DNA of 64,000 bases. Origin: Octopus vulgaris (lineage: Eukaryota). This document shows positions 9,831-60,012 of the stretch, one piece after another. A program made the translations under genes and the position numbers. Numbering within the stretch: position 1 is the stretch's first letter; the number at the start of each line of letters is the position of its first letter. Location of the stretch: the NCBI GenBank assembly GCA_951406725.2, contig OX597814.1, positions 47,926,001 to 47,990,000 of the forward strand, written 5' to 3'. The notes under the pieces are model-generated. The model worked only from the letters and a program-made list of their open reading frames with translations, did no database searches and was not told the origin of the DNA.

Positions 9831-10884
9831 GAGATGGTACCAACTGTCAATGATCTCATAACGCATGTGCTCCCAAACATTGCACAAACTTTAGCAACAG
9901 TCAATGGCTCTGTGAGCGAGCCATCTCAGTTCCACGTAATGATGCTGTCAACAAAATCAACTGGGATCTCCTGTAGCTGTAGCCCGGACAAGAACAGCCT
10001 TTCAAATCCCTCGACACTGTCTTTGGTCAGGACCAGGCTGTAGTTTTTCCGAGTTCCTGAACTCTCTACAGCCACCTGAGAGGCTACCTCACCACTTAAC
10101 ACTTACAAAGGGGGCCCCAATCATGCTGCTCAGGAATCTGGATCCACTTCGTCTGTGCAATGGCACCAGACTGGTGGTGAAAGCGATGCGACCCCATGTC
10201 CTAGAGGCAACAATTGTGACTGGGAACTATAAGGGTGAGAATGTCTTCATTCCACGGATCCCGTTAATACCATATGACCTCCTCTTTGAATTTAAACGGT
10301 TCCAGTTCCCAGTGAAACTAAGTTTCGCTATGTCAATAAACAAGTCACAAGAACAGTCTCTCAAGGTTGTTGGACTTCACCTTGCTTCTCTCATGGGCAA
10401 TTATACGTAGGATGTTCGCGAGTTGGAAATCCCCATAATCTTTTCATTTATACACCAATTAAAGGACACACTCAAAACATCGTAAATTTAGAAGCTCTAG
10501 ATAATTAAACTGTGATTGATTTCCGGATTTGTTTCAATACATTTGTTTATATTCACATTATCTGGTAGAATTTTTGTTAAATGTACTTATTAACGGGAGG
10601 GGAGCACCTGCAGGCCAGTTCTTCTCAAATTTATGCATTTTCAGGTTCAAAGGGTTTCAAATAAGTACTGACAATTGAAGGTGATTGCAAAGACAAGAAC
10701 TGCCTGGTTTCTTAACAATTTTAACAGTGAGAACATCGGATAAAAATGTTATTGACATTAATAGTTTGTACCCCAGCTAATTACTGTTGAGAACTGCATA
10801 ATTCATGTTTCATTTTAGAGATTTAAAAGACATACTTAAATTTCATTATTTTCAATAACCTGGGAAACGCCGGGTTATTAACGT
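9826..10884 (+). mobile_element. Helitron 3' remnant with PIF1-family helicase pseudogene (coding part ~9826-10508)
   Basis: [79 protein letters not shown] are RepHel/PIF1 motifs broken by frameshifts and stops. 3' hairpin AATAACCTGG-GAAACG-CCGGGTTATT at 10854-10879. Confidence 0.9.
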
Positions 10885-14094: not shown

Positions 14095-17000
14095 TAACTC
14101 ATTAAATCTTTAACTAGTTTCAGCTCGTGAGCTACGGCCAAGCTGGGACACCGCCGTTAGCCTTTCTATACCTTCACGATTTGCAACCTTCTCTGATATG
14201 TGGCATTTAGTGAATGGGGAAATTTGATGCTGCTGCCCTCATTTGCATTTCCTGCCATGAGGTAGGCCCACCAGAAACTCTTGACGGGTGGAGGTCCAGT
14301 TTTGTTTTGGAGACACCTACATCCACCTCATTCAGGTCTCTCAGGCTTTTGTGGAGAATACTGAAGTGCTGTGGGCCCTTGAAACCCTAGCTGTTGCAGT
14401 ATCGTTTCTGTGTCTTGATAGCGAAGTTCAGATCTTCGGCATTATGTAATTCTGCTGTTTGAGTAACTTTCAATGCCAAAGTTTGATACAAGTCCTTCCA
14501 GAATTTTCCAGATATATATCACTGCGTATCTTTACCGCCATCGTTCTAGGAAGTAGAGACTTAACGCTTTTAGCGTTTTGCAATAGTTGATAAGTCGCAT
14601 TGAGACGATCTTCTTTGTGTAGCTTCGCTGGATTGCTTCGAGTTCCGCCGTTAATTTTACACTATGTGGTGACCATAGTAGGGAACAGTAGTCTAAGCGG
14701 CTCAGGACATATGCCCTCCAAAGGACATTCGTAGTTTACTTTAATCTCGTTCTGAAAGTTCTAAGGATCAATCCGGCCAGCCATCTGCATTTTATTGCAC
14801 CTAGAAAGCTGCATCATTACTCATGTCATTCACTCATTGACACTCAATTACAACGACAAGGATTTCAGTCGATCCGATCAACAGAACAGCTTGCTCGTGA
14901 AATTAACGTGCAAGTGGCAGAGCACTCCACAGACACGCATACCCTTAACGTAGTTCTCAGAGTGATTCAGCGTGATACAGGATGTGACAAGGCTGGACCT
15001 TTGAAATACAGGTATTACTCATTTATGCCAACTGAGTGAATAGGAGCTATGTGAAAAAAGTATCTTGCTTAAGGACACAACATGCCATCAGGTTTCGAAC
15101 TTATCACCTTACGATCTTGAGCCGAATACTCTAACTGCTTAACCACGCGCCTTCACATTACTCGTGTCAATGCCCTGGACGCGCACTGATTTTGATTCAA
15201 GGATTGCAATACCGCCTGGACTAGTGTATTCAGTCTACATTTCATTCAACTTTGTGTGCTGGTAACTTAGGACTTGGGATTTTCCAGCATTAAACTGCAT
15301 GTTATTGTCCTCAGTCCACTTATATATTGCATCCACTTATATATTGCACCTGTTGCAGGTGCGCAAGATCCCCAGGTTTCTGTATCCTCTGAGAGACTTT
15401 TGTATCGTCTGCATAACTAGCAAAGATGGCTATTTGAGCAGCTGAGGACATGCTTGAGTGGGCTGCTATGCATAGCAATTGTCCTAAAAGTGCCTTGTGG
15501 AACACCACCTGCTATTTGTGTTCCCTTACAGGTGGATCTATTGGCCACTACTGCCCGACTTCTATCTTTTAGAAAGTCATATAGACACTCTCCACGTTTT
15601 CCTACAATGCTGAGGTCAAACAGCTTGTGACATATTATACCATGGTCGACTTTATCAAAAGCCTTTGCGATGTCGTGGTATATAACGTCCACATTCGAGT
15701 TGTTGAGCAGCAGCTTTAACACCCAGTCGTAGTGCTGTAAGAGCTGTCTGGCAGTTTCTGCCTGGTTAAAAACCATGCTTGGTGTCAATCTGCAAGTCAT
15801 TCTCTTCAAGGAACGCAATTAGTTTCCTTCGGACAATTCGTTCCCTGAGTTTTCTGAGTGAGGTCAGAGAGATAGGCCTATAATATTTAGCATCTACTCT
15901 GCTTCCTCTTTCATGGATAGGACATATATAAATTATCCCCTCTTTCAAATTGCCTAGGAGCTTACTACTTCCAAGGAAGCTCTGAAAAAAGAAGCTGCAG
16001 TGGTTCTGCAAGAACTCGTTTGCTAGATTTGAGAAGGGTTGCTGAGAATCCATCAGGGCCAGCAACTGAGTTTGCGTCGACCTCATCTATGGCCAGTATT
16101 ACATCTTTAATGTTGATGTAATCAGTTATTGCCACTTCCTCCGCTACAGGTGTAGTGGTAAAGAACTCCACTGGTTTGTTCACTTGCCTGTGTTTTAAAG
16201 GTGTAGTGAAAACACTTTTGAACTGTTCGTGCAGTATTTCATTTATCTGCATTAGGTTTCGTGCGAGGGAGCCGTCGTTTTGGAAGAAGGACCCTATCTT
16301 GTAGTGTACTGAGGCCGCTTCTTTGACAAAATTAAAGAAAGCATTAGGGTTTGACGACTTCATATATATTTTATAACTCAGATCTCTTTGTCCGCTCTCT
16401 CTTTTTCATGGGATTATTCCAGACTTTTCTCAAACTCCATCAGTGTTGTTTTCATGCAGGACTTTTCACTATTCTTGAGATATTTGTTCAGGCAGTTTGT
16501 AGTCTTTGTCCGTTGTCCCATAAGGATATTCCTCTTACTGGGAATCTCGTTTTTGTGAGTGTTGGCCTTGTACTCCGAAACAGATTTATCGCATATAGCA
16601 TGTATTACGAACAAGAAATGTTTAAGTTTTGTGTCAATGTGTGGTGCGGAGAGACTGTTTGAGGATCTCTTTCTAAATTGAGTTCCAGTTTGCTTTATGG
16701 AAGTTCAAACTGGAAAGATTTCGTGTACTTCGTATACGCTGTACGTCTGTTGCTCCTTTTGGTCCATATATAGTTATCTCTATTTTACTGTGATCCGAGA
16801 CTAATGTCAGTGTCACTTTCATCTTATGGACGATATCCTTATTGTTTATGAAGCAGAGATCCAATATATTAGTTGTCCTGATTGGCTGGAGCATAGTTTG
16901 CTCCATGAATGACGCATTGCTACAGTTGAACAGGGACTCTACCCTTGCTTGTTGGCAGTGTGTCATTCCTGAGAGCATGAGCCCCTCGAGCTATCCCACA

Positions 17001-20737: not shown

Positions 20738-21179
20738 TCCCTTACATGTGTGTATTGATTTATGCCCGCATATATAATGTATATAGTTATTCGAGTGTGT
20801 GTGTGAGTGCATGGATTTATGTTTGTGCCTAAAGATATATATTTTTGTGTGTGTGTGTGTGTTTGCGTTCAACTAAATGAATATGTGAATGATTGTTTAT
20901 ATTTGTAATATATTGCTTGTTATAGCCGTAGTAGTAGAAGTGATGGTAACAGTGCTAGTGGGAGTGGTTTTTGAGTCGCAACAACATTCATGCTCTACAG
21001 TTACACATGCAAGTACATAAAATGTTCTAACACACACTGAGTTAGCCATAGTAAATACATAGGGTTTAATTCATAATATACCTGCAAGAAAAGCTCGAGC
21101 AGATTCATAGTATTAAAAAAAAATGATTTTCTGAAGAAGAAGAAAAAAAAAATGTAGTAAAATAATTTACTATATAATT

Positions 21180-22314
21180 TCTCCGACCGAACCTATTCAC
21201 GTACCAAGGGAGTTAGTGACGGAAGGGCGGGCGGATGGATGGATGGGCTTACAGAGCTAGATAAATGGACCGGACAACGTAAAAACTGATAGTCAGATAG
21301 ATGGCTGGAGATGTAGGTGAGAGGGGCAATAGTTGCTTTAATTTTTTAGTCCCTCTTTATGTTCAATCAGTGCTTCAGCTGCAGTCGTCCCACCAACACA
21401 AGATCAATGGTTTCTCGTGGCTGCCGATCAACACTGGACACTTTACGCGCATACATACATATATATATATATACACAGTCCTTTATTTTTTCTCTCTTCG
21501 TCTCTTCCTGCCGTACTTCCTTCCTTTCGTCCCTCCTCACTCTCTCTTTCTCTCTCGCACGCACGCACGCACGCACGCACACAACACACAAAAGCAACAT
21601 TCTCGGATCAAATACTACATTACATTGCACAGAACAATCCATTCACTGTTGACAGCACTTGTGGTGGTAGTGCTGCTACTGCTGCCACTGGTCGCTTCTG
21701 CCGGCATCGTTGTTAACGTACGTTATCAACTTAACAGATATTAAGCTATCTCATCCGATCGACTTACTCAGTAGTACCTGCAATCAACCCACCTATTTTA
21801 AAGCGATCCTTTTCTTTTCTCCGCTATTTATTTACGAATTTTGCTCTGGAGTGCAATAACTAGCACAATTCCATTGCAATAACAATCTAAACATAGTTAC
21901 TACTACAGATTTTTACGGCAAAAAAAAAAAAGAGGAAAAAGAATCTACAGAAACTCGATTCTAGTTTTCACTGATATACTGACATGAAGTCTGAAGTACC
22001 TTTATAAACAAATATTTCTTCAAACACGCATACACAAGCTCTTATTTGTATATAGTCGCATGTAAAATACACATTAAGTACATGTATATTTCGGAACAGA
22101 TACATGTGTAAAGAGCGGGCTTCGTGTATATATTTATATGAGTGAAAGAGCCGACAAGAGATAAGGCCGAACTACGGCAATCAGTAATAATAACAAAGGC
22201 AACACTACCACTAAAAAGTCGATAGAGTGGCTACTTTTAACGAAATATGCCAGCGAGGTCAAGGCATAGAAGGCTGTGTGCGGATAGAGATTATTATGAA
22301 GCAGTGTTGACAAA
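21180..22314 (+). promoter_or_regulatory. Putative promoter / 5' UTR of the ZNRF3-like gene
   Basis: Lies immediately upstream of the first coding exon, has no recognisable TE, retains CpG, GC-box-like GGGCGGGCGG at ~21225, (CGCA)n at ~21556. TSS cannot be placed from sequence. Confidence 0.45.
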
Positions 22315-22318
22315 ATGA
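22247..22318 (+). other. Upstream ORF (23 aa, MPARSRHRRLCADRDYYEAVLTK*) whose TGA overlaps the main ATG
   Basis: ATG at 22247, TGA at 22316-22318 within ATGA. A second uORF (MKQC*) lies at 22296-22310. Translation untested. Confidence 0.5.
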
Positions 22319-22782
22319 TCGGTCGTCTTTGGCTAACTGTGTTGGATGTTTGGTGTAACCATTGCCAATACTGTGCTGTCTATCTCTTCCTGCTCTGTTT
22401 AGCCTGGCCCGGTTACATTGTAATGGCCAAAGAAAAAGCCATTTTAGAAATCTTATTGTACCAACCGCCGAAATCCGTTTCAGTGGATTACAAACCACCC
22501 GCTATCTCACCACCAGGTCCGGGTCCAGGTATCCGACCGTCACCGCCAATGATGTCCGGAGGTATACACATAGGCCCTGATATACACCATGAATACGGTG
22601 AGAATGGAAGAAGGGTAAATAACGTTGAAAATAATCCTGAGACGGGAATGGATGCGTTTGTTCCCTCTGGAAATTTAGCGCATCAGGGACTTAGGACATA
22701 CAATGAATACAAATCTTACTGGTTGAGTGGACATTTTTCACCTGCAGGGGCTGCTAAGAAGGCTGAAGGACCAATTATACAG
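22315..22782 (+). CDS. ZNRF3: First coding exon of a ZNRF3/RNF43-like PA-TM-RING E3 ubiquitin ligase
   Basis: CAAA-ATG start; hydrophobic signal peptide ending VMA. AKEKAILEILLYQ..DY and YWLSGHFSPAGAAKKAEGPIIQ align to recalled human ZNRF3 AKETAFVEVVLFE..GDY and TGLTGRFSRAGATLSAEGEIVQ. Phase-0 donor CAG|GTACAT at 22782/22783, the position where human exon 1 ends (after Q100). ZNRF3 vs RNF43 orthology cannot be resolved; likely a single invertebrate co-orthologue. Confidence 0.88.
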
Positions 22783-23648
22783 GTACATTTTCTACTTTTT
22801 CTTTTTCTTCCTCCGAACAAGCAGACATTAGATTGTTAAATTGAAAAGCCGTGTAAACAGTTTTTAAATGTTAGTGTAAACGGTGTTCTTGTGTTTATGT
22901 GTATGTGTCAAAGTACAGTAACTACAGACAGAAAATTGTGCATGTTTTGATGTTAGTAAGCAGTCTGTTGTTGTCTTTTTCATACATACATACTTACACA
23001 CATACATACATACATACATATGTATATATATGTGTGTGTATGTATGTGTGTGCTATGTATTCAGTTATGTGACGTATAGTTAAAATAGTTTATGCTTATA
23101 CGCTTACACATGTTGCATTGAGGAGGCTGATATACAAGTACCTGTATCTGTAAACACGCAACATTTGAGTATAACATTAATCATATCCCATGATTTAAAT
23201 GTATGTGATACATTCAGCTCGTGATAAGTATTAAATATATATATACACGCAATACATTATTTATTTCCAAGTGGCTTTGTAGTGTTATGGGTTATAGTGT
23301 ATTTCCACATTTACATTTGATTTTGTCGTGAAATACTACATAACTTGGTTGTTATATATATATATATACATATATCTTAATTAATGAAATACAAATGGTA
23401 CAACACTTCGGCTGTAAATAGATAAACCCTAGTTATATACTCGATTAAAGCTACAACAAAGAAAAAGAAAATGTTTGCCTGCAAATATTTATAGCTCTCT
23501 GCGATACGCTACAACATTATATGGTTTCGTACAAGTTTTGAGATGCTATGTATTTACGGACAACGGTGTGAATATATTGACTTTCTTCCTTTATTTCAAA
23601 GAAACATCTGAGTACTAGTTCATGTTAATTATTTATTCTCTGTTGATG

Positions 23649-23715
<67 letters not shown>

Positions 23716-24349
23716 ACACACATACACAAATGTATATTGGACTGCTATAAATATACTTTAGTACTGTTAAGCATTCTAGAAATGTTCCATTTGTGAGTTT
23801 TAGAAAATCAAAGCCCATCTTTTTATCACCCATAATAAAATTTTGTTTTTTGCTTATTAACACAGCTTCAAGTTCAGTATTGAGATTTTAAATCTTATCG
23901 GGATTCGAAATCAAAATATAATTAATTTAGAGCGACAGAATAGGAAGGTGGGAATCTCAAATGCTGATGTATTTTCCATGCTTAAAGTAAAAGGAGTGAA
24001 ACGATTCCCGATGGAAATCGAAACCGGTCCGCTGAAGTCTTATGGCCGTACTTCGGTGTTCCACCTCATGAATTATTGTGTTAATGCAATTTCTACAGTT
24101 AATTTCCCCCACATCTACAGTTTAAGAATTAAATACTAGTAAAGTTCACAAAAAGAAATATATTAGTGCGTATATTTGTCATTGAAGTCAATGAGTTAAC
24201 TCTTAACTGAGTTTTGTACCTTGTAAATCGGTGTGTATGTAAGCGCAGACATATCGGTGTGTATGTATGCACACAGACATATCTGTATGTATGTATGTAT
24301 GTAAATGTAATATGCAAATGTAGTTTGTTCATATGTGTATATCTGTGTT

Positions 24350-27392
<3,043 letters not shown>

Positions 27393-27554
27393 TATGTTCC
27401 AAGGGATGATAAGTTCAAAGCTGCTCAGCCACTAACACTAAAGAACTGAGAGATAAATATGAGAATGAATTAAGATTTAATCTGTAATCGTTAGTTCAAC
27501 AAAATATATTTTGTTTCGCCAATTTTATGTATTTTGTTGAGCTACCCGTTATGG

Positions 27555-41981: not shown

Positions 41982-44116
41982 CAGTGGTGGGCACAGCTAA
42001 CCAAAAAGTTAACTTCACTAATATGCTAACTAAAAAAGTTAGCTTCACAAACACTAAACTGCTAAACAGGTAAAAAAAAAAATTAGTAGAAGCTAACGCT
42101 AAATGATGACCACTAACTTTTGTCATATGAATTTAGTTTTGGCTTGGTTTTTTGGGCTCTAAAACCCCTAAAAACAGACATAGAGATCTGAAATTTTCAT
42201 ATTGTAGCTTAGATGTAGAGCCTTCCAAAAAGGTATAGCATGCCAAGATCAGATGATAATTAAGGTATACACAAATAATTAAATGAACAAATGATATTAA
42301 ACATTAGTTTTTCAGTCAACAAACATTTTATTTAACAAATGAAAAAGGTATAGTATAGCATAGGTGTCATGCCAAGGTCAAATGATGATCAAAGTGTACT
42401 ACTCTGGCTGAGCCTTCTCTATCACCTTGACATGATACTGGTTGTCCTTCATAAACATCAGCCTTTCAAAGTTACCATCTGACAGGGTGGCTCTCTTTGC
42501 CCTCAAAATATCTTTGCCTATAGAGAATAAGTGCTTAACTGTAGCACTGGATGAGATGGGGGTGTTATACTTGGTTAACAGGTCAGCCAAGACCCGCTCA
42601 CCCAAAAAGGTGACTTCAGTCAGGACCTTCTTTGAGACAGTCTCCAGCCAGGTCTTCACCAAGTTTTATGCCTTGGATTTCAGTGACCTGTGACTCCTAC
42701 TCTCCTGGAACCAAGTGATGTTGCTGAAGAAATCATCTTCCTCATTCTCATGGCACTCCAGGTCTTCTAGGAGGAGCCCAAACGTTTTCATGATGCCTAG
42801 GACTGCAGTACAGGAGATATCTGAACTTGGCCTCCCTCAACTTCATGACAGTAGCCACTACAGTTGACAAAAGGCACCTGAGATAAGCCTGGCTCTCCCC
42901 TTGGATTTTATCCCAGGTCTTGGCCACATTAGACATCACCTGGGTGTACACCGTCAGGAAGCCAACATCAGAATCAGTGAAGGTCTATAGCTTCAGCTGT
43001 GTCCTCATCCTGTGGACAGCAAGTTGTTGAGGATAACACCAGTTATTGGTAGAGTTCTATATGGAACTGTTGGGGACCACCAGCTTCCTTTTCAACATGT
43101 CCAGAATGCTGTCTGCCACCACCATGCTGCAGCTTTTCCACAGCTGCTGTGCCTTGGACCTGGCCTTTCTGTAGGCTGACTTGAACGAAACGCTGTCAAA
43201 AGCTTTGTCAGCGTCCACACTGGCTACCAAGTTGAAGGTATCGGCTGTGCACTTCATTAGCACTGGCAGGTTTAAGCCCACGCTGCTGAACTCGTCAAGG
43301 ATGGCATCAACAGAAATGTACTTAACTTTGTCCACATCCCCAACCTTGGGATCCACATCCATCCAGGTCAACATCCTTGACGCCCTCCACATCTGGATCG
43401 GCAGCAGCCTCAGGAATGTCTGGCAAGAGATCAACTTCTCTACCAAATTGCATAAATGCCTTAAATAAGTTTTTGCCATTGTCTGTTGGGGTCCTGGTCA
43501 CCTTTTCTCACTGATAAGTGACGCATTGTGGATGATGACACATGGCACATGACACACCAGAAGTACAGGATTTTGGCATTCCTCTTATCTTTTGACATAA
43601 GGACAAAATAGTCCTTCAGGTGGGGCCACAGGCCCTGAGACTCCTGACTCTCCACCTGAGCGACCTCTACCTCACCCACAGCTGTTGCAGACTCCTCAAC
43701 AGACTCTTCATCTTCAGACTGAATAAAAATGTCTTCACCTTCCATAACGATAAGCAATAACATGATAAGCCGAAAACGTACACTGCTGTCACTGACACTA
43801 TAAGACCGTCTGTATTGTGACAACATCATAAGTGAACACAACTCAAAACTGAAGAATGACACAATGCTGCTCAGCTAGCTGCTGCTGCATTGACCAATCA
43901 CGTCTTGTGATGTGTACATATAGTCAGCCGATAGTGTACCTGACGGGCTCTTTGAGATGCGTCCACAACAGACAGGAACAAACATATGAATTTTGTTAGT
44001 GGACTTAAAATTAGCAGAAGCTAATTGGTCCGTTAACGGAAATGCTAATCTGCTAAACGAAAAGCCAGCTTCACTAATTAGCTGTTGGTGTATTATCGGA
44101 ACTGTGCCCATCACTG
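41982..44116 (-). mobile_element. hAT (Ac-like) DNA transposon with disrupted transposase
   Basis: TIR CAGTGGTGGGCACAG / CTGTGCCCATCACTG; subterminal GCTAA repeats. BED-finger start WPHLKDYF..FWCVMC, CTADTFNLVA (CxxHxLNL), and YNTPISSSATVKHLFSIGKDILRAKRATLSDGNFERLMFMK (dimerisation). No clean 8-bp TSD. Confidence 0.92.
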
Positions 44117-50668: not shown

Positions 50669-51743
50669 CCAGGCTGAGTAAAAAAGTAGGCAACGTTTGG
50701 AAGCATGAAATTCATTACAATATATTTCAACAATGCGGAAATTTTATTCATCAAAAGTAAGTACTATTACAGTCAGCACATTTTTGCCAATGAGTTACGA
50801 ATCTGTTTATTCCAGTAACATAAAAATCTGGATTTCTGGAGTTGATTAAATCTTTGAATGCACTTTCAGCATCAGTTTGATTTTTTAACTCCTCTGACAG
50901 GAAACCATCAAGGTGCTTGAAAAAGTGGTACTTAGGAGGAGAAAGGTCTGGGGAAGAACTTCATAGAAGTTGAAGTTCCTTCAACTTCTGGAGTATCATT
51001 ATTGAAACGTATGGTCAAGTATTGTCATGAAGAATGATTGGCCCTCTTCTGTTGACCTGTCTGAGACAGAGGAGTAGCAGTTTTTCATTCATTTTGGCAA
51101 TTTCATGGCAATATGTTTCTGCAGTAATGGTTTTTCTGGGTTTTAAAAAGTTATAATGGATGAGTCCAGCAGTACATCACCAAACAGTCAACATAACCTT
51201 CTTTTTGAAGATCTTGGGTTTAGGGAAGGTTTTCAGTGCTTCGTTTTGGTCCAACCACTGTAAACAATGTTTTTTTATTATTGTAGAGAATCCACTTTTT
51301 ATTGCAAGTTAAAATATGGTCGAGAAGTGGATTGGTCTGGTTACAGAGAGGAAGTGATGAGCAAATTTCATATCTGCGCATTTTCTGATTTTCATTCAAA
51401 TCATGTGGTACCCATTTGTTGAGCTTTTTTGATTTTCTGATCACATGCAAATGGTTGCAGGCAGTTTTCTGGTTAACGTAAAGTTCTTTTGCCTGTTCTT
51501 GAGTGGTTTTACGTGGATATTTCTCAGTGATGGTCTTTAATTGACCGTCATCGATGACAGATGGGTGTCCACTACACTCACGATCTTCAAAGCTCAGGTC
51601 TCCCCTTGATGCATTTGGGCAAGTCTATGTTTGTATTATTAGACAATTGGAAAAGAATGTTTAAAAAAAAATTCAAAACTCTGCAAAAGTCTAGTACAAA
51701 TTCTTCGTGGTTCAAAGCATTGCTTATTTTGTACTCAACCTGA
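50669..51743 (-). mobile_element. Mariner DNA transposon remnant (Hsmar1/SETMAR-like motifs)
   Basis: Imperfect TIRs CCAGGCTGAGTAAAAAAGTAGGCAACGTTTG / rc TCAGGTTGAGTACAAAATAAGCAATGCTTTG. KKLNKWVPHDL..RYEICSSL..LDHILTCNKKWILYNN, ILHDNT, SPDLSP..YHFFKHLDGFL. Confidence 0.92.
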
Positions 51744-59116: not shown

Positions 59117-60012
59117 CGAGGTGATATCAAAAAGTTCCAGACTAGTTTTGTAGCATACTAACAGATAGCAGCACACGATTGTGTTGTGAATGAGAGTTAG
59201 CAGTGACCTTCATGAGGCAGTGTGCTGAGTAACATTGCTGTGCTTACTTCGCAAGTTGTGAAATTCGTGTTTTTGTCATCACATGTATGCTGTAGTCTGT
59301 GATTTTGACATAGACAAGAAGAAAGAACCAATGTGAAATTTTGTGTTAAACTTGGGAAGTCTGCTGCAGAGACATTGAGTATGCTTCAGCAGGCTTGCAA
59401 CGATGAGGCAACGGATCATACACAATATTTTGAGTGGCAAAGGTGCTTCAAAAGCAGAAGAATGTCCCCAGAAGACCTGCCATGAGTGTCACCCCTGAAA
59501 ATGTGGTGTTGTGTATTGAGAATTCATCCCCCAGGGCCAGGCTGTCTATTGAGAGTTCTACTGTTTTGAAGCATTTGAAGGAGGACACTTGGCAAAAGCA
59601 ACCAGATCTTTGGAGTGTGAAGAATTGGATTCTTCATGATGACAATGCACCCTGTCACTGAGCTCTCCTCACTCATAAGTTTCTTGCCAAAAACAACATG
59701 ATTTTGCTTCCGCACCCACCCTATTCACCACATTTAGCACCTGTGTACTTCCACCTCTTCCCCAAGATGAAAACGCAGCTCAGAGGTCACCATTTTAACA
59801 CTGTAGTCAAGATCCAGAGTGAATCACAGAAGGTCCTTGACTCACTTACAGAAAACGACTTCCAGGCCAGATTCCAAAAGTGGCAGGAATGCTGGGACCA
59901 GTGTATTTCTGTGCAAGGTAACTATTTCAAAGGAGATGATGTTAAAACTTAGGTAAATAAGTTATTTTTTTATTAAACATAGCTAGTCTGGGAACTTTTC
60001 GATACTACCTCA
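59117..60012 (+). mobile_element. Mariner DNA transposon, deleted derivative
   Basis: TA-flanked TIRs CGAGGTGATATCAAAAAGTTCC / GGAACTTTTCGATACTACCTCA. NVKFCVKLGKSAAETL, WILHDDNAPCH, HPPYSPHLAPVYFHLFPKMK motifs. Confidence 0.93.

What the first reader, a model, noticed from the sequence alone, without database searches (positions are those of the whole stretch)
22465..22710. ZNRF3/RNF43-like ectodomain carries a ~70-aa Pro/Gly/Asn-rich insertion
Seen: between ..LLYQPPKSVSVDYK and EYKSYWLSGHFSPAG the exon encodes ~70 extra stop-free residues (PPAISPPGPGPGIRPSPPMM..GENGRRVNNVENNPETG..). The insert is bracketed by similar DYKP / EYKS motifs. Known: in vertebrate ZNRF3 these two segments are joined by a short turn (the first beta-hairpin of the PA domain), in the ectodomain that binds R-spondin. 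Inference: a lineage-specific, probably disordered extracellular loop on a core Wnt-receptor ligase could change ligand, receptor or dimer contacts, and the dibasic GRR could be a processing site.
Basis: partly seen in the sequence, partly recalled or inferred. Interest (0 to 1): 0.75.

Follow-up and report, generated by a model that had tools for sequence, protein, structure and literature searches.

The report
Octopus Wnt brake with rebuilt clasp
In octopus, the argonaut and one more distant related lineage, the enzyme that likely clears Wnt receptors from the cell surface carries about 70 extra amino acids, with a short well-kept proline-rich stretch, in the arm that in vertebrates clasps a second copy of the enzyme, so the extra piece likely changes how the signal R-spondin switches the enzyme off.

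Summary
Real and spliced in. Window 22315-22782 is exon 1 of the Octopus ZNRF3/RNF43 gene (identical to O. sinensis XP_029636713.1, residues 1-156). The beta1-beta2 loop is 87-94 aa in 11 rows from Octopus, Argonauta and an unnamed sister lineage, and 15-18 aa in 24 other lophotrochozoan and deuterostome rows. All five runs that cover the exon (five studies) hold the whole insert and splice to exon 2. AlphaFold2 keeps both strands and leaves the insert unresolved. Not a random loop: residues 58-74 are 15/17 identical across the deepest split, like the folded domain (96/106), while the rest of the insert is 12/54. In vertebrates this hairpin is the dimer clamp and an LGR4 contact; its docking pair Tyr118-Gly119 (36 of 39 outgroup rows each) is replaced in all six insert rows that can be scored, whereas R-spondin contact residues and an R-spondin gene are kept. 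Best reading: a rebuilt clamp that retunes switch-off, not ligand binding (inferred). The DYK/EYK bracket is chance-level; the RR is no furin consensus in octopods. Nautilus and LGR partner untested.

The parts
22315..22782 (+). Coding part of exon 1 of the ZNRF3/RNF43 gene (residues 1-156); intron 1 is 130,445 nt, exon 2 at G000:C1:48079228
22315..22428 (+). Predicted signal peptide, residues 1-38 (hydrophobic core about 19-35; cleavage before K39 inferred from homologues)
   Evidence: hydropathy; alignment; helix in models; no signal-peptide predictor was run
22435..22461 (+). Strand beta1 of the PA domain (residues 41-49)
   Evidence: AlphaFold2; alignment
22495..22707 (+). Insert (residues 61-131 on the simplest alignment; the whole loop between the strands is 22462-22707), predicted unresolved
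22489..22539 (+). Conserved Tyr-Lys plus Pro/Gly block (residues 59-75), starting at the likely equivalent of clamp residue Tyr74
22555..22563 (+). Invariant Ser-Gly-Gly (residues 81-83), possible glycosaminoglycan site (untested)
22597..22614 (+). GENGRR (residues 95-100): only dibasic site of the insert; may instead echo the ancestral x-N-G turn
22708..22737 (+). Strand beta2 of the PA domain (residues 132/133-141)
22783..22784 (+). GT splice donor used in the laid contigs
21593..22314 (+). 5' leader on the same contigs as the exon (to 21593 in two runs; a separate contig of a third run reaches 21002)

Best explanation
This is a spliced-in, roughly 70-residue insert at the tip of the beta1-beta2 hairpin of the Octopus ZNRF3/RNF43 ectodomain, which likely arose once in a cephalopod ancestor and likely rebuilt the dimer clamp, so that R-spondin would still bind but would switch the ligase off through changed dimer or co-receptor contacts. 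Shown: the insert, its place between two intact strands (predicted), its inclusion in spliced RNA, its restriction to one clade, the conserved Pro/Gly block beside a fast-changing linker, the replacement of the clamp's docking pair Tyr118-Gly119, and the retention of R-spondin contact residues and of an R-spondin gene. Inferred: the hairpin tip tolerates insertions because it is a flexible surface arm; once the long loop was in place the old hairpin-to-Tyr118 contact was lost; the Tyr59-Lys60-polyproline block was kept by selection as a new short docking segment (for the partner protomer or a co-receptor) on a disordered tether; Frizzled ubiquitination by the RING goes on as in vertebrates and C. 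elegans.
For: Loop 87-94 aa in 11 of 37 rows, 15-18 aa in 24, 2 rows lacking exon 1. Of 150 profile hits 55 had both strands scored and only the Octopus row had a loop of this size. Insert rows form one side of a branch, support 100/100, stem 0.87, short inner branches (again 100 in a 52-row tree). Residues 58-74 are 17/17 identical to Argonauta and 15/17 to P0004, against 40/54 and 12/54 for residues 75-128, 13/37 for the signal region of the same exon versus P0004, and 96/106 for the PA domain; 0 of 2000 shuffles reached the block's score in each of 4 distant rows. 5 of 5 covering runs, five studies, hold the full insert and continue into exon 2. Both AlphaFold2 models give strands 41-48/49 and 132/133-141 with pLDDT under 50 over nearly all of 55-128; Foldseek ranks ZNRF3 chains first. 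The hairpin embraces the partner protomer and contacts Leu115', Tyr116', Tyr118', Arg145', Gln148' (PMC3905715, PMC3861454) and LGR4 via Tyr77, Thr78, Glu62, Glu67 (PMC12488874). Tyr/Phe118 in 36 of 39 and Gly119 in 36 of 39 scorable outgroup rows (10 of 49 unscorable) versus Glu-Gln/Arg in 6 of 6 insert rows with exon 2 (18 of 19 each). R-spondin contact residues Gln100, His102, Lys125, Glu127 map to Q156, H158, K180, E182. The genome holds Fu1, Fu2 and TSP exons of an R-spondin with the Ser, Asn, Arg, Met, Arg, Gln, Gly contact positions kept.
Against: No binding partner of the block is identified and no model resolves it. The conservation rests on one deep comparison (octopods versus one unnamed lineage) and on protein identity only. 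The stem branch is long, so the Tyr118-Gly119 change may be one of many unrelated changes: a single co-occurrence shows no co-evolution. Much of the dimer interface is kept (E151, R199, Y171, R232), so the dimer may be little changed. Loops of 31 and 36 aa occur in two unrelated divergent rows, so the site takes insertions without special meaning. The vertebrate dimer is weak in solution and RNF43 is monomeric, and RNF43 without its PA domain still suppresses Wnt (PMC7291719 abstract). No LGR4-6-type partner was looked for in this genome.
Confidence: 0.5

Rival explanations
1. Tolerated passenger: the insert is a near-neutral expansion of a flexible surface loop; the Pro/Gly block is kept only as a stiff spacer that lets beta1 and beta2 pair or protects from proteolysis, and signalling is unchanged.
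For: Residues 75-128 change faster than the disordered tail (12/54 versus 389/724 against P0004) and their local similarity is no better than shuffles (282-722 of 2000). Hairpin is a flexible element in crystals; independent 31- and 36-aa loops exist; PA domain dispensable for Wnt suppression in RNF43.
Against: 15/17 identity of the block across the deepest split, equal to the folded domain, is more than a spacer usually needs; length stays within 87-94; invariant SGG at the same offset.
Confidence: 0.27
2. Glycan carrier: the invariant Ser-Gly-Gly (and further Ser-Gly pairs) take a glycosaminoglycan or mucin-type glycans, making the ligase its own proteoglycan co-receptor for R-spondin or Wnt, or sterically blocking the dimer as glycans are thought to do in RNF43.
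For: Ser-Gly at offset 30-31 of the loop in 6 of 6 rows, 2-4 Ser-Gly per row; an Asp lies 8-9 residues behind it in the printed rows (by eye). Heparan sulfate proteoglycans can replace LGRs for R-spondin (PMC5800842 abstract); RNF43 glycans map to the clamp.
Against: The Octopus site lacks the acidic cluster usually needed for chain attachment (recalled rule); Ser-Gly is common in Gly-rich loops; no N-glycan sequon in the loop.
Confidence: 0.1
3. Processing loop: a convertase cuts at the RR, leaving beta1 held non-covalently and exposing new ends that regulate the ligase.
For: Exactly one dibasic site in each of 6 rows, always after G-E-N/S; that motif arose in 0.2-0.3% of shuffles of the distant rows (1-2% for a looser pattern; pattern chosen after seeing it).
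Against: No R-x-x-R in Octopus, Argonauta or P0004; present elsewhere in the loop of three distant rows. A dibasic site alone arises in 34-51% of shuffles. The motif resembles the family's own turn (NG in 21 of 24, ENG in 9 of 24 short loops), so it may be inherited.
Confidence: 0.08
4. The block is conserved for its nucleotide sequence (RNA structure for editing, splicing or translation control of a long first exon), not for the peptide.
For: The signal region is 36/37 identical to Argonauta, high for a signal peptide; frozen sequence around editing sites is known in coleoids (recalled).
Against: Versus P0004 the same signal region is 13/37 while the block is 15/17; no repeat pairing the insert with flanking DNA among those printed; no letter change inside the exon in five runs' contigs (contigs drop minor variants).
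Confidence: 0.05

Closest known systems
Vertebrate ZNRF3 (PDB 4C86, 4CDK, 8XFP, 9KB8/9KB9)
   Same: PA ectodomain, single TM, RING-H2; best PDB sequence hit E 2.6e-43; Foldseek rmsd 1.6 A over 131 columns to 4c86_A; R-spondin contact residues and both ectodomain Cys kept; dimer core Glu95 and Arg178 equivalents kept.
   Different: Loop 88 instead of 15 aa; Tyr118-Gly119 replaced by Glu-Gln, Leu115 by Ala, Gln148 by Glu; alphaC-beta7 loop likely two residues longer (or Ala201 replaced by Arg; register ambiguous).
Vertebrate RNF43 (PDB 4KNG, 4C9V)
   Same: Same architecture; also departs from ZNRF3 at the hairpin (shorter, flexible, glycosylated) and is monomeric.
   Different: Much weaker match (E 1.5e-17); RNF43 shortens the hairpin, Octopus lengthens it.
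Other lophotrochozoan ZNRF3-like proteins (chiton, bivalves, Haliotis, nemerteans, Owenia)
   Same: 33-55% identity over beta2 to RING in the search tables; same order of domains; unnamed exon read-throughs end at the same Gln.
   Different: All scorable rows have the 15-18 aa loop and nearly all keep Tyr/Phe-Gly-Trp.
C. elegans PLR-1
   Same: Invertebrate member of the same cluster, lowers surface Frizzled (PMC3937510 passages).
   Different: Not compared by sequence here; nematodes lack R-spondin (same review), this genome has one.

Membership tests
ZNRF3/RNF43 transmembrane E3 ligases | ZNRF3-type PA ectodomain (PF18212) | tested here: met
   98.5 bits, cut-off 26.2, residues 157-261 of P0002; Foldseek
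ZNRF3/RNF43 transmembrane E3 ligases | Signal peptide, single TM helix, cytoplasmic RING-H2 | tested here: met
   RING over cut-off in P0002, P0003, P0004; TM helix 275-310 and RING region confident in model; signal peptide by hydropathy and homology only
ZNRF3/RNF43 transmembrane E3 ligases | Best solved relatives are ZNRF3/RNF43, not Goliath/GRAIL | tested here: met
   top 10 of 40 PDB sequence hits ZNRF3, next 3 RNF43; GRAIL 3icu at rank 49
ZNRF3/RNF43 transmembrane E3 ligases | R-spondin Fu1 contact residues (Gln100, His102, Lys125, Glu127) and ectodomain disulfide | tested here: met
   Q156, H158, K180, E182, C163, C189; Met-finger pocket loop altered
ZNRF3/RNF43 transmembrane E3 ligases | Ubiquitinates Frizzled and is cleared by R-spondin | not testable with these tools
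   needs cell assays
ZNRF3-type clamp dimer | Short extended beta1-beta2 hairpin docking on Leu115/Tyr116/Tyr118 of the partner | tested here: not met
   loop 88 aa, unresolved in both models; Tyr118 and Leu115 replaced
ZNRF3-type clamp dimer | Core interface residues (Glu95, Arg178, Arg145, Tyr116) | tested here: met
   E151, R232, R199, Y171
RSPO-LGR4/5/6-ZNRF3 module | R-spondin gene with Fu1-Fu2-TSP | tested here: met
   G000:C23:10399021-10402424; PF15913 64.5 and 44.4 bits, PF19028 45.5 bits; all 13 PDB hits R-spondins
RSPO-LGR4/5/6-ZNRF3 module | LGR4/5/6-type receptor | not tested
   no query sequence or family model was on hand
Furin-type processing site | R-x-x-R consensus (recalled) | tested here: not met
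   absent from the loop in Octopus, Argonauta, P0004; present away from the RR in P0037-39

The most novel reading that the evidence does not exclude
Coleoid cephalopods rewired the R-spondin/ZNRF3 switch: the vertebrate-type clamp was discarded and replaced by a tethered, conserved Pro/Gly docking motif (possibly with a glycosaminoglycan on the invariant Ser-Gly-Gly) that serves as a built-in co-receptor, letting R-spondin tune Wnt strength without an LGR4-6 receptor. This would be a natural experiment on whether ZNRF3 dimerisation and LGR contact are needed for R-spondin action.
Probability: 0.15. Interest if true: 0.8.

Novelty: new variant of a known kind. Interest (0 to 1): 0.5.

Why it matters
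The hairpin is the one element of ZNRF3 that links ligand binding, dimerisation and LGR4 contact, and the role of the dimer is still debated. A lineage that has kept R-spondin and its contact residues, yet carries a 70-residue arm with a conserved new motif and has lost the clamp's docking tyrosine, offers swap experiments on that question and a candidate change in Wnt tuning on the cephalopod stem. If the insert is a passenger, it still marks a site that takes large insertions, and the exon is missed in one public gene model.

Tried and rejected
Homodimer prediction of residues 39-268: no answer (score 0.00 twice); not evidence either way. No RNA holder is on record as such in the run search; RNA origin is read from the spliced junction. 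Runs X21, X22, X24 laid nothing at 80% likeness, so no codon comparison and no dN/dS. Family search of the genome with PF18212 found nothing and its controls did not ring; a protein query then found the exons. Atlas search of residues 50-130: no usable hit. Exon alone against PDB gave only catalase at E 1.7-3.7, rejected as chance. Duplication origin from the DYK/EYK bracket: chance-level. Retained intron or skipped insert: eight in-frame GT-AG pairs of 150 nt or more exist inside the loop but no contig skips any part. Repeat or transposon origin: insert DNA and exon protein each match only their own place (the tool warns that no match does not show rarity). Loss of R-spondin as cause of relaxation: rejected, gene present. 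No insert-free row joined the insert clade in the 52-row tree, so Nautilus could not be placed. Four long loops (52, 41, 30, 23 aa) are mis-picked beta1 strands by eye. The supplement of PMC12111769 could not be read; it may list cephalopod R-spondins. Paper searches on LGR4/bursicon receptor/mollusc gave 0. Earlier-findings look-ups gave nothing relevant.

Full report
Observation. The window holds an open frame from ATG 22315 to a GT donor at 22783, 156 codons. It is identical to residues 1-156 of proteins named from Octopus sinensis (P0002, P0008 = XP_029636713.1) and differs at one residue from O. bimaculoides. The full protein has a ZNRF3 ectodomain (PF18212, 98.5 bits, cut-off 26.2) and a RING; of 40 PDB sequence hits the first 10 are ZNRF3 (best E 2.6e-43) and the next 3 RNF43 (best 1.5e-17). 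Four downstream exons lie at one locus 130,445 nt further on; exon 1 has no second match in the genome. The exon alone matches no family, since the Pfam model begins at exon 2.

Inclusion in RNA. The run search listed no holder on record as RNA. Of 8 runs laid, 5 (five studies) covered the exon; each has one contig across the whole insert that leaves the window at the donor and continues with the first bases of exon 2; none skips part of the insert; 3 runs laid nothing (junction checked against the genome). Contigs drop rare variants, so minor skipping is not excluded. Public isoforms either have the whole exon or lack it entirely (X3 and the O. vulgaris model); none has the strands without the insert.

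Distribution. Measured from the end of beta1 to the Leu of beta2, the loop is 87-94 aa in 11 of 37 rows (Octopus, Argonauta, and six unnamed rows of a more distant type), 15-18 aa in 24 rows (17 named: chiton, seven bivalves, three Haliotis, two nemerteans, Owenia, two hemichordates, hagfish; 7 unnamed), and 2 rows lack the exon. A profile search over 1.84 billion representatives gave 150 rows: 68 had no PA match of 40 bits, 27 could not be scored (mostly models starting at exon 2), 55 were scored, and only the Octopus row has a loop of this size; the next plausible lengths are 36 and 31 aa in two divergent rows. On trees built without the insert, the insert rows form one side of a branch with full support, a long stem (0.87; 0.67) and short inner branches. 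That the distant type is squid or cuttlefish is an inference from this position; it is not shown. Nautilus was not found, and gastropods are scored only through Haliotis.

Anatomy. The insert is not uniform. Against P0004, residues 58-74 are 15/17 identical, the PA domain 96/106, residues 75-128 12/54, the signal region 13/37 and the disordered tail 389/724; against Argonauta 17/17, 103/106, 40/54, 36/37, 632/724. No shuffle of 2000 reached the score of residues 58-83 in any of 4 distant rows, whereas the middle part scored no better than shuffles. Ser-Gly-Gly at 81-83 is invariant in the 9 aligned rows (the labels printed are one too high). Each of 6 rows has one dibasic site after G-E-N/S, with no R-x-x-R in octopods or P0004; the short loops of relatives turn on x-N-G (21 of 24), so the motif may be inherited. 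The DYK/EYK bracket is chance-level. The simplest alignment makes Tyr59 the family's Tyr74 and puts one insertion at 61-131; Tyr129 and the GENG motif are alternative anchors that cannot be excluded.

What the site does in relatives. In crystals the hairpin is a flexible arm that embraces helix A and the beta3-beta4 loop of the partner; R-spondin tightens this embrace; the dimer is weak in solution and RNF43 is monomeric with glycans on the clamp (PMC3905715: passages and section 10). Val64, Phe66, Gly72, Asp73 and Tyr74 contact Leu115', Tyr116', Tyr118', Arg145', Gln148', Gly150'; R-spondin binds Gln100, His102, Lys125, Glu127 (PMC3861454: passages). The hairpin edge also contacts LGR4, and LGR4 lacking that region signals less (PMC12488874: passages and section 8). 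RNF43 without PA domain still suppresses Wnt but ignores R-spondin (PMC7291719: abstract). Heparan sulfate proteoglycans can replace LGRs (PMC5800842: abstract).

Mapping to Octopus (counted on the alignment printed; columns). R-spondin contacts are kept (Q156, H158, K180, E182), as are E151, Y171, R199, R232 and both Cys. The docking pair Tyr118-Gly119 is Tyr/Phe in 36 of 39 and Gly in 36 of 39 scorable outgroup rows (10 of 49 not scorable) but Glu-Gln/Arg in 6 of 6 insert rows that reach exon 2. The genome has an R-spondin: Fu1, Fu2 and TSP exons over their Pfam cut-offs, with the Fu1 contact positions kept. R-spondin in molluscs is already reported (PMC12111769: passages; supplement unreadable); an older review held the module to be vertebrate-only (PMC3937510: passages). 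An LGR4-6-type receptor was not looked for.

Mechanism. Most likely (0.5) the insert arose once, displaced the old hairpin-to-Tyr118 contact, and its Tyr-Lys-polyproline block became a new tethered docking segment, changing how R-spondin clears the ligase while ligand binding and RING activity stay; every functional step here is inferred. Against it: one deep comparison, a long stem on which many sites changed, a largely intact dimer core, and other independent loop extensions. Rivals: tolerated passenger (0.27), glycan carrier (0.10), processing loop (0.08), nucleotide-level constraint (0.05).

Novelty. A member of the ZNRF3/RNF43 family that fails the short-clamp feature: a new variant of a known kind. 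Five paper searches (listings, with passages read of PMC7521923, PMC9545775 and PMC11698847) showed no report of this insert; the library lacks most subscription papers. The sequence itself is in public annotations under uninformative names. Interest 0.5.

Noticed in passing
G000:C23:10399021-10402424 (L006, L007, L010): R-spondin gene with Fu1 (Met-finger motif as in RSPO2), Fu2 and TSP exons; expression not checked.
   Followed up: partly
P0002, P0009 (isoform X2): Annotated in both O. sinensis and O. bimaculoides, it lacks residues 311-367, including the first two RING cysteines: a possible ligase-dead, dominant-negative isoform.
   Followed up: no
P0005, P0010, P0006: Isoform X3 and the O. 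vulgaris model lack exon 1 (signal peptide, beta1, beta2, insert); many gastropod-like representatives also start at exon 2, likely gene models broken by the long first intron.
   Followed up: partly
window 21002-22314: Leader covered by contigs holds 19 upstream ATGs (7 after 21980), with frames up to 147 codons; possible translational control.
   Followed up: no
P0008 residues 250-263 (exon at G000:C1:48083370-48083579): The alphaC-beta7 loop, which lines the Met-finger pocket, is likely two residues longer in the insert clade, or Ala201 (19 of 19 outgroup rows) is Arg.
   Followed up: partly
P0090, P0119: Independent hairpin loops of 36 and 31 aa in divergent unnamed family members; P0090 ends its loop with a GENG turn like the octopus motif.
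   Followed up: no
window 21969: Run X14 has a 29-letter loose end before this place; two pieces of it were not found in the window, so adapter or other 5' exon.
   Followed up: partly
window 24130-27430: About 3.3 kb of AT-rich microsatellite with strong GC skew in intron 1.
   Followed up: no
window 9943-10407 (+), 15420-16990 (-), 42402-43874 (-), 51223-51624 (-), 59434-59949 (+): Decayed mobile-element frames; by eye Helitron-helicase-, LINE reverse-transcriptase-, hAT- and mariner-like (labels recalled, not tested).
   Followed up: no
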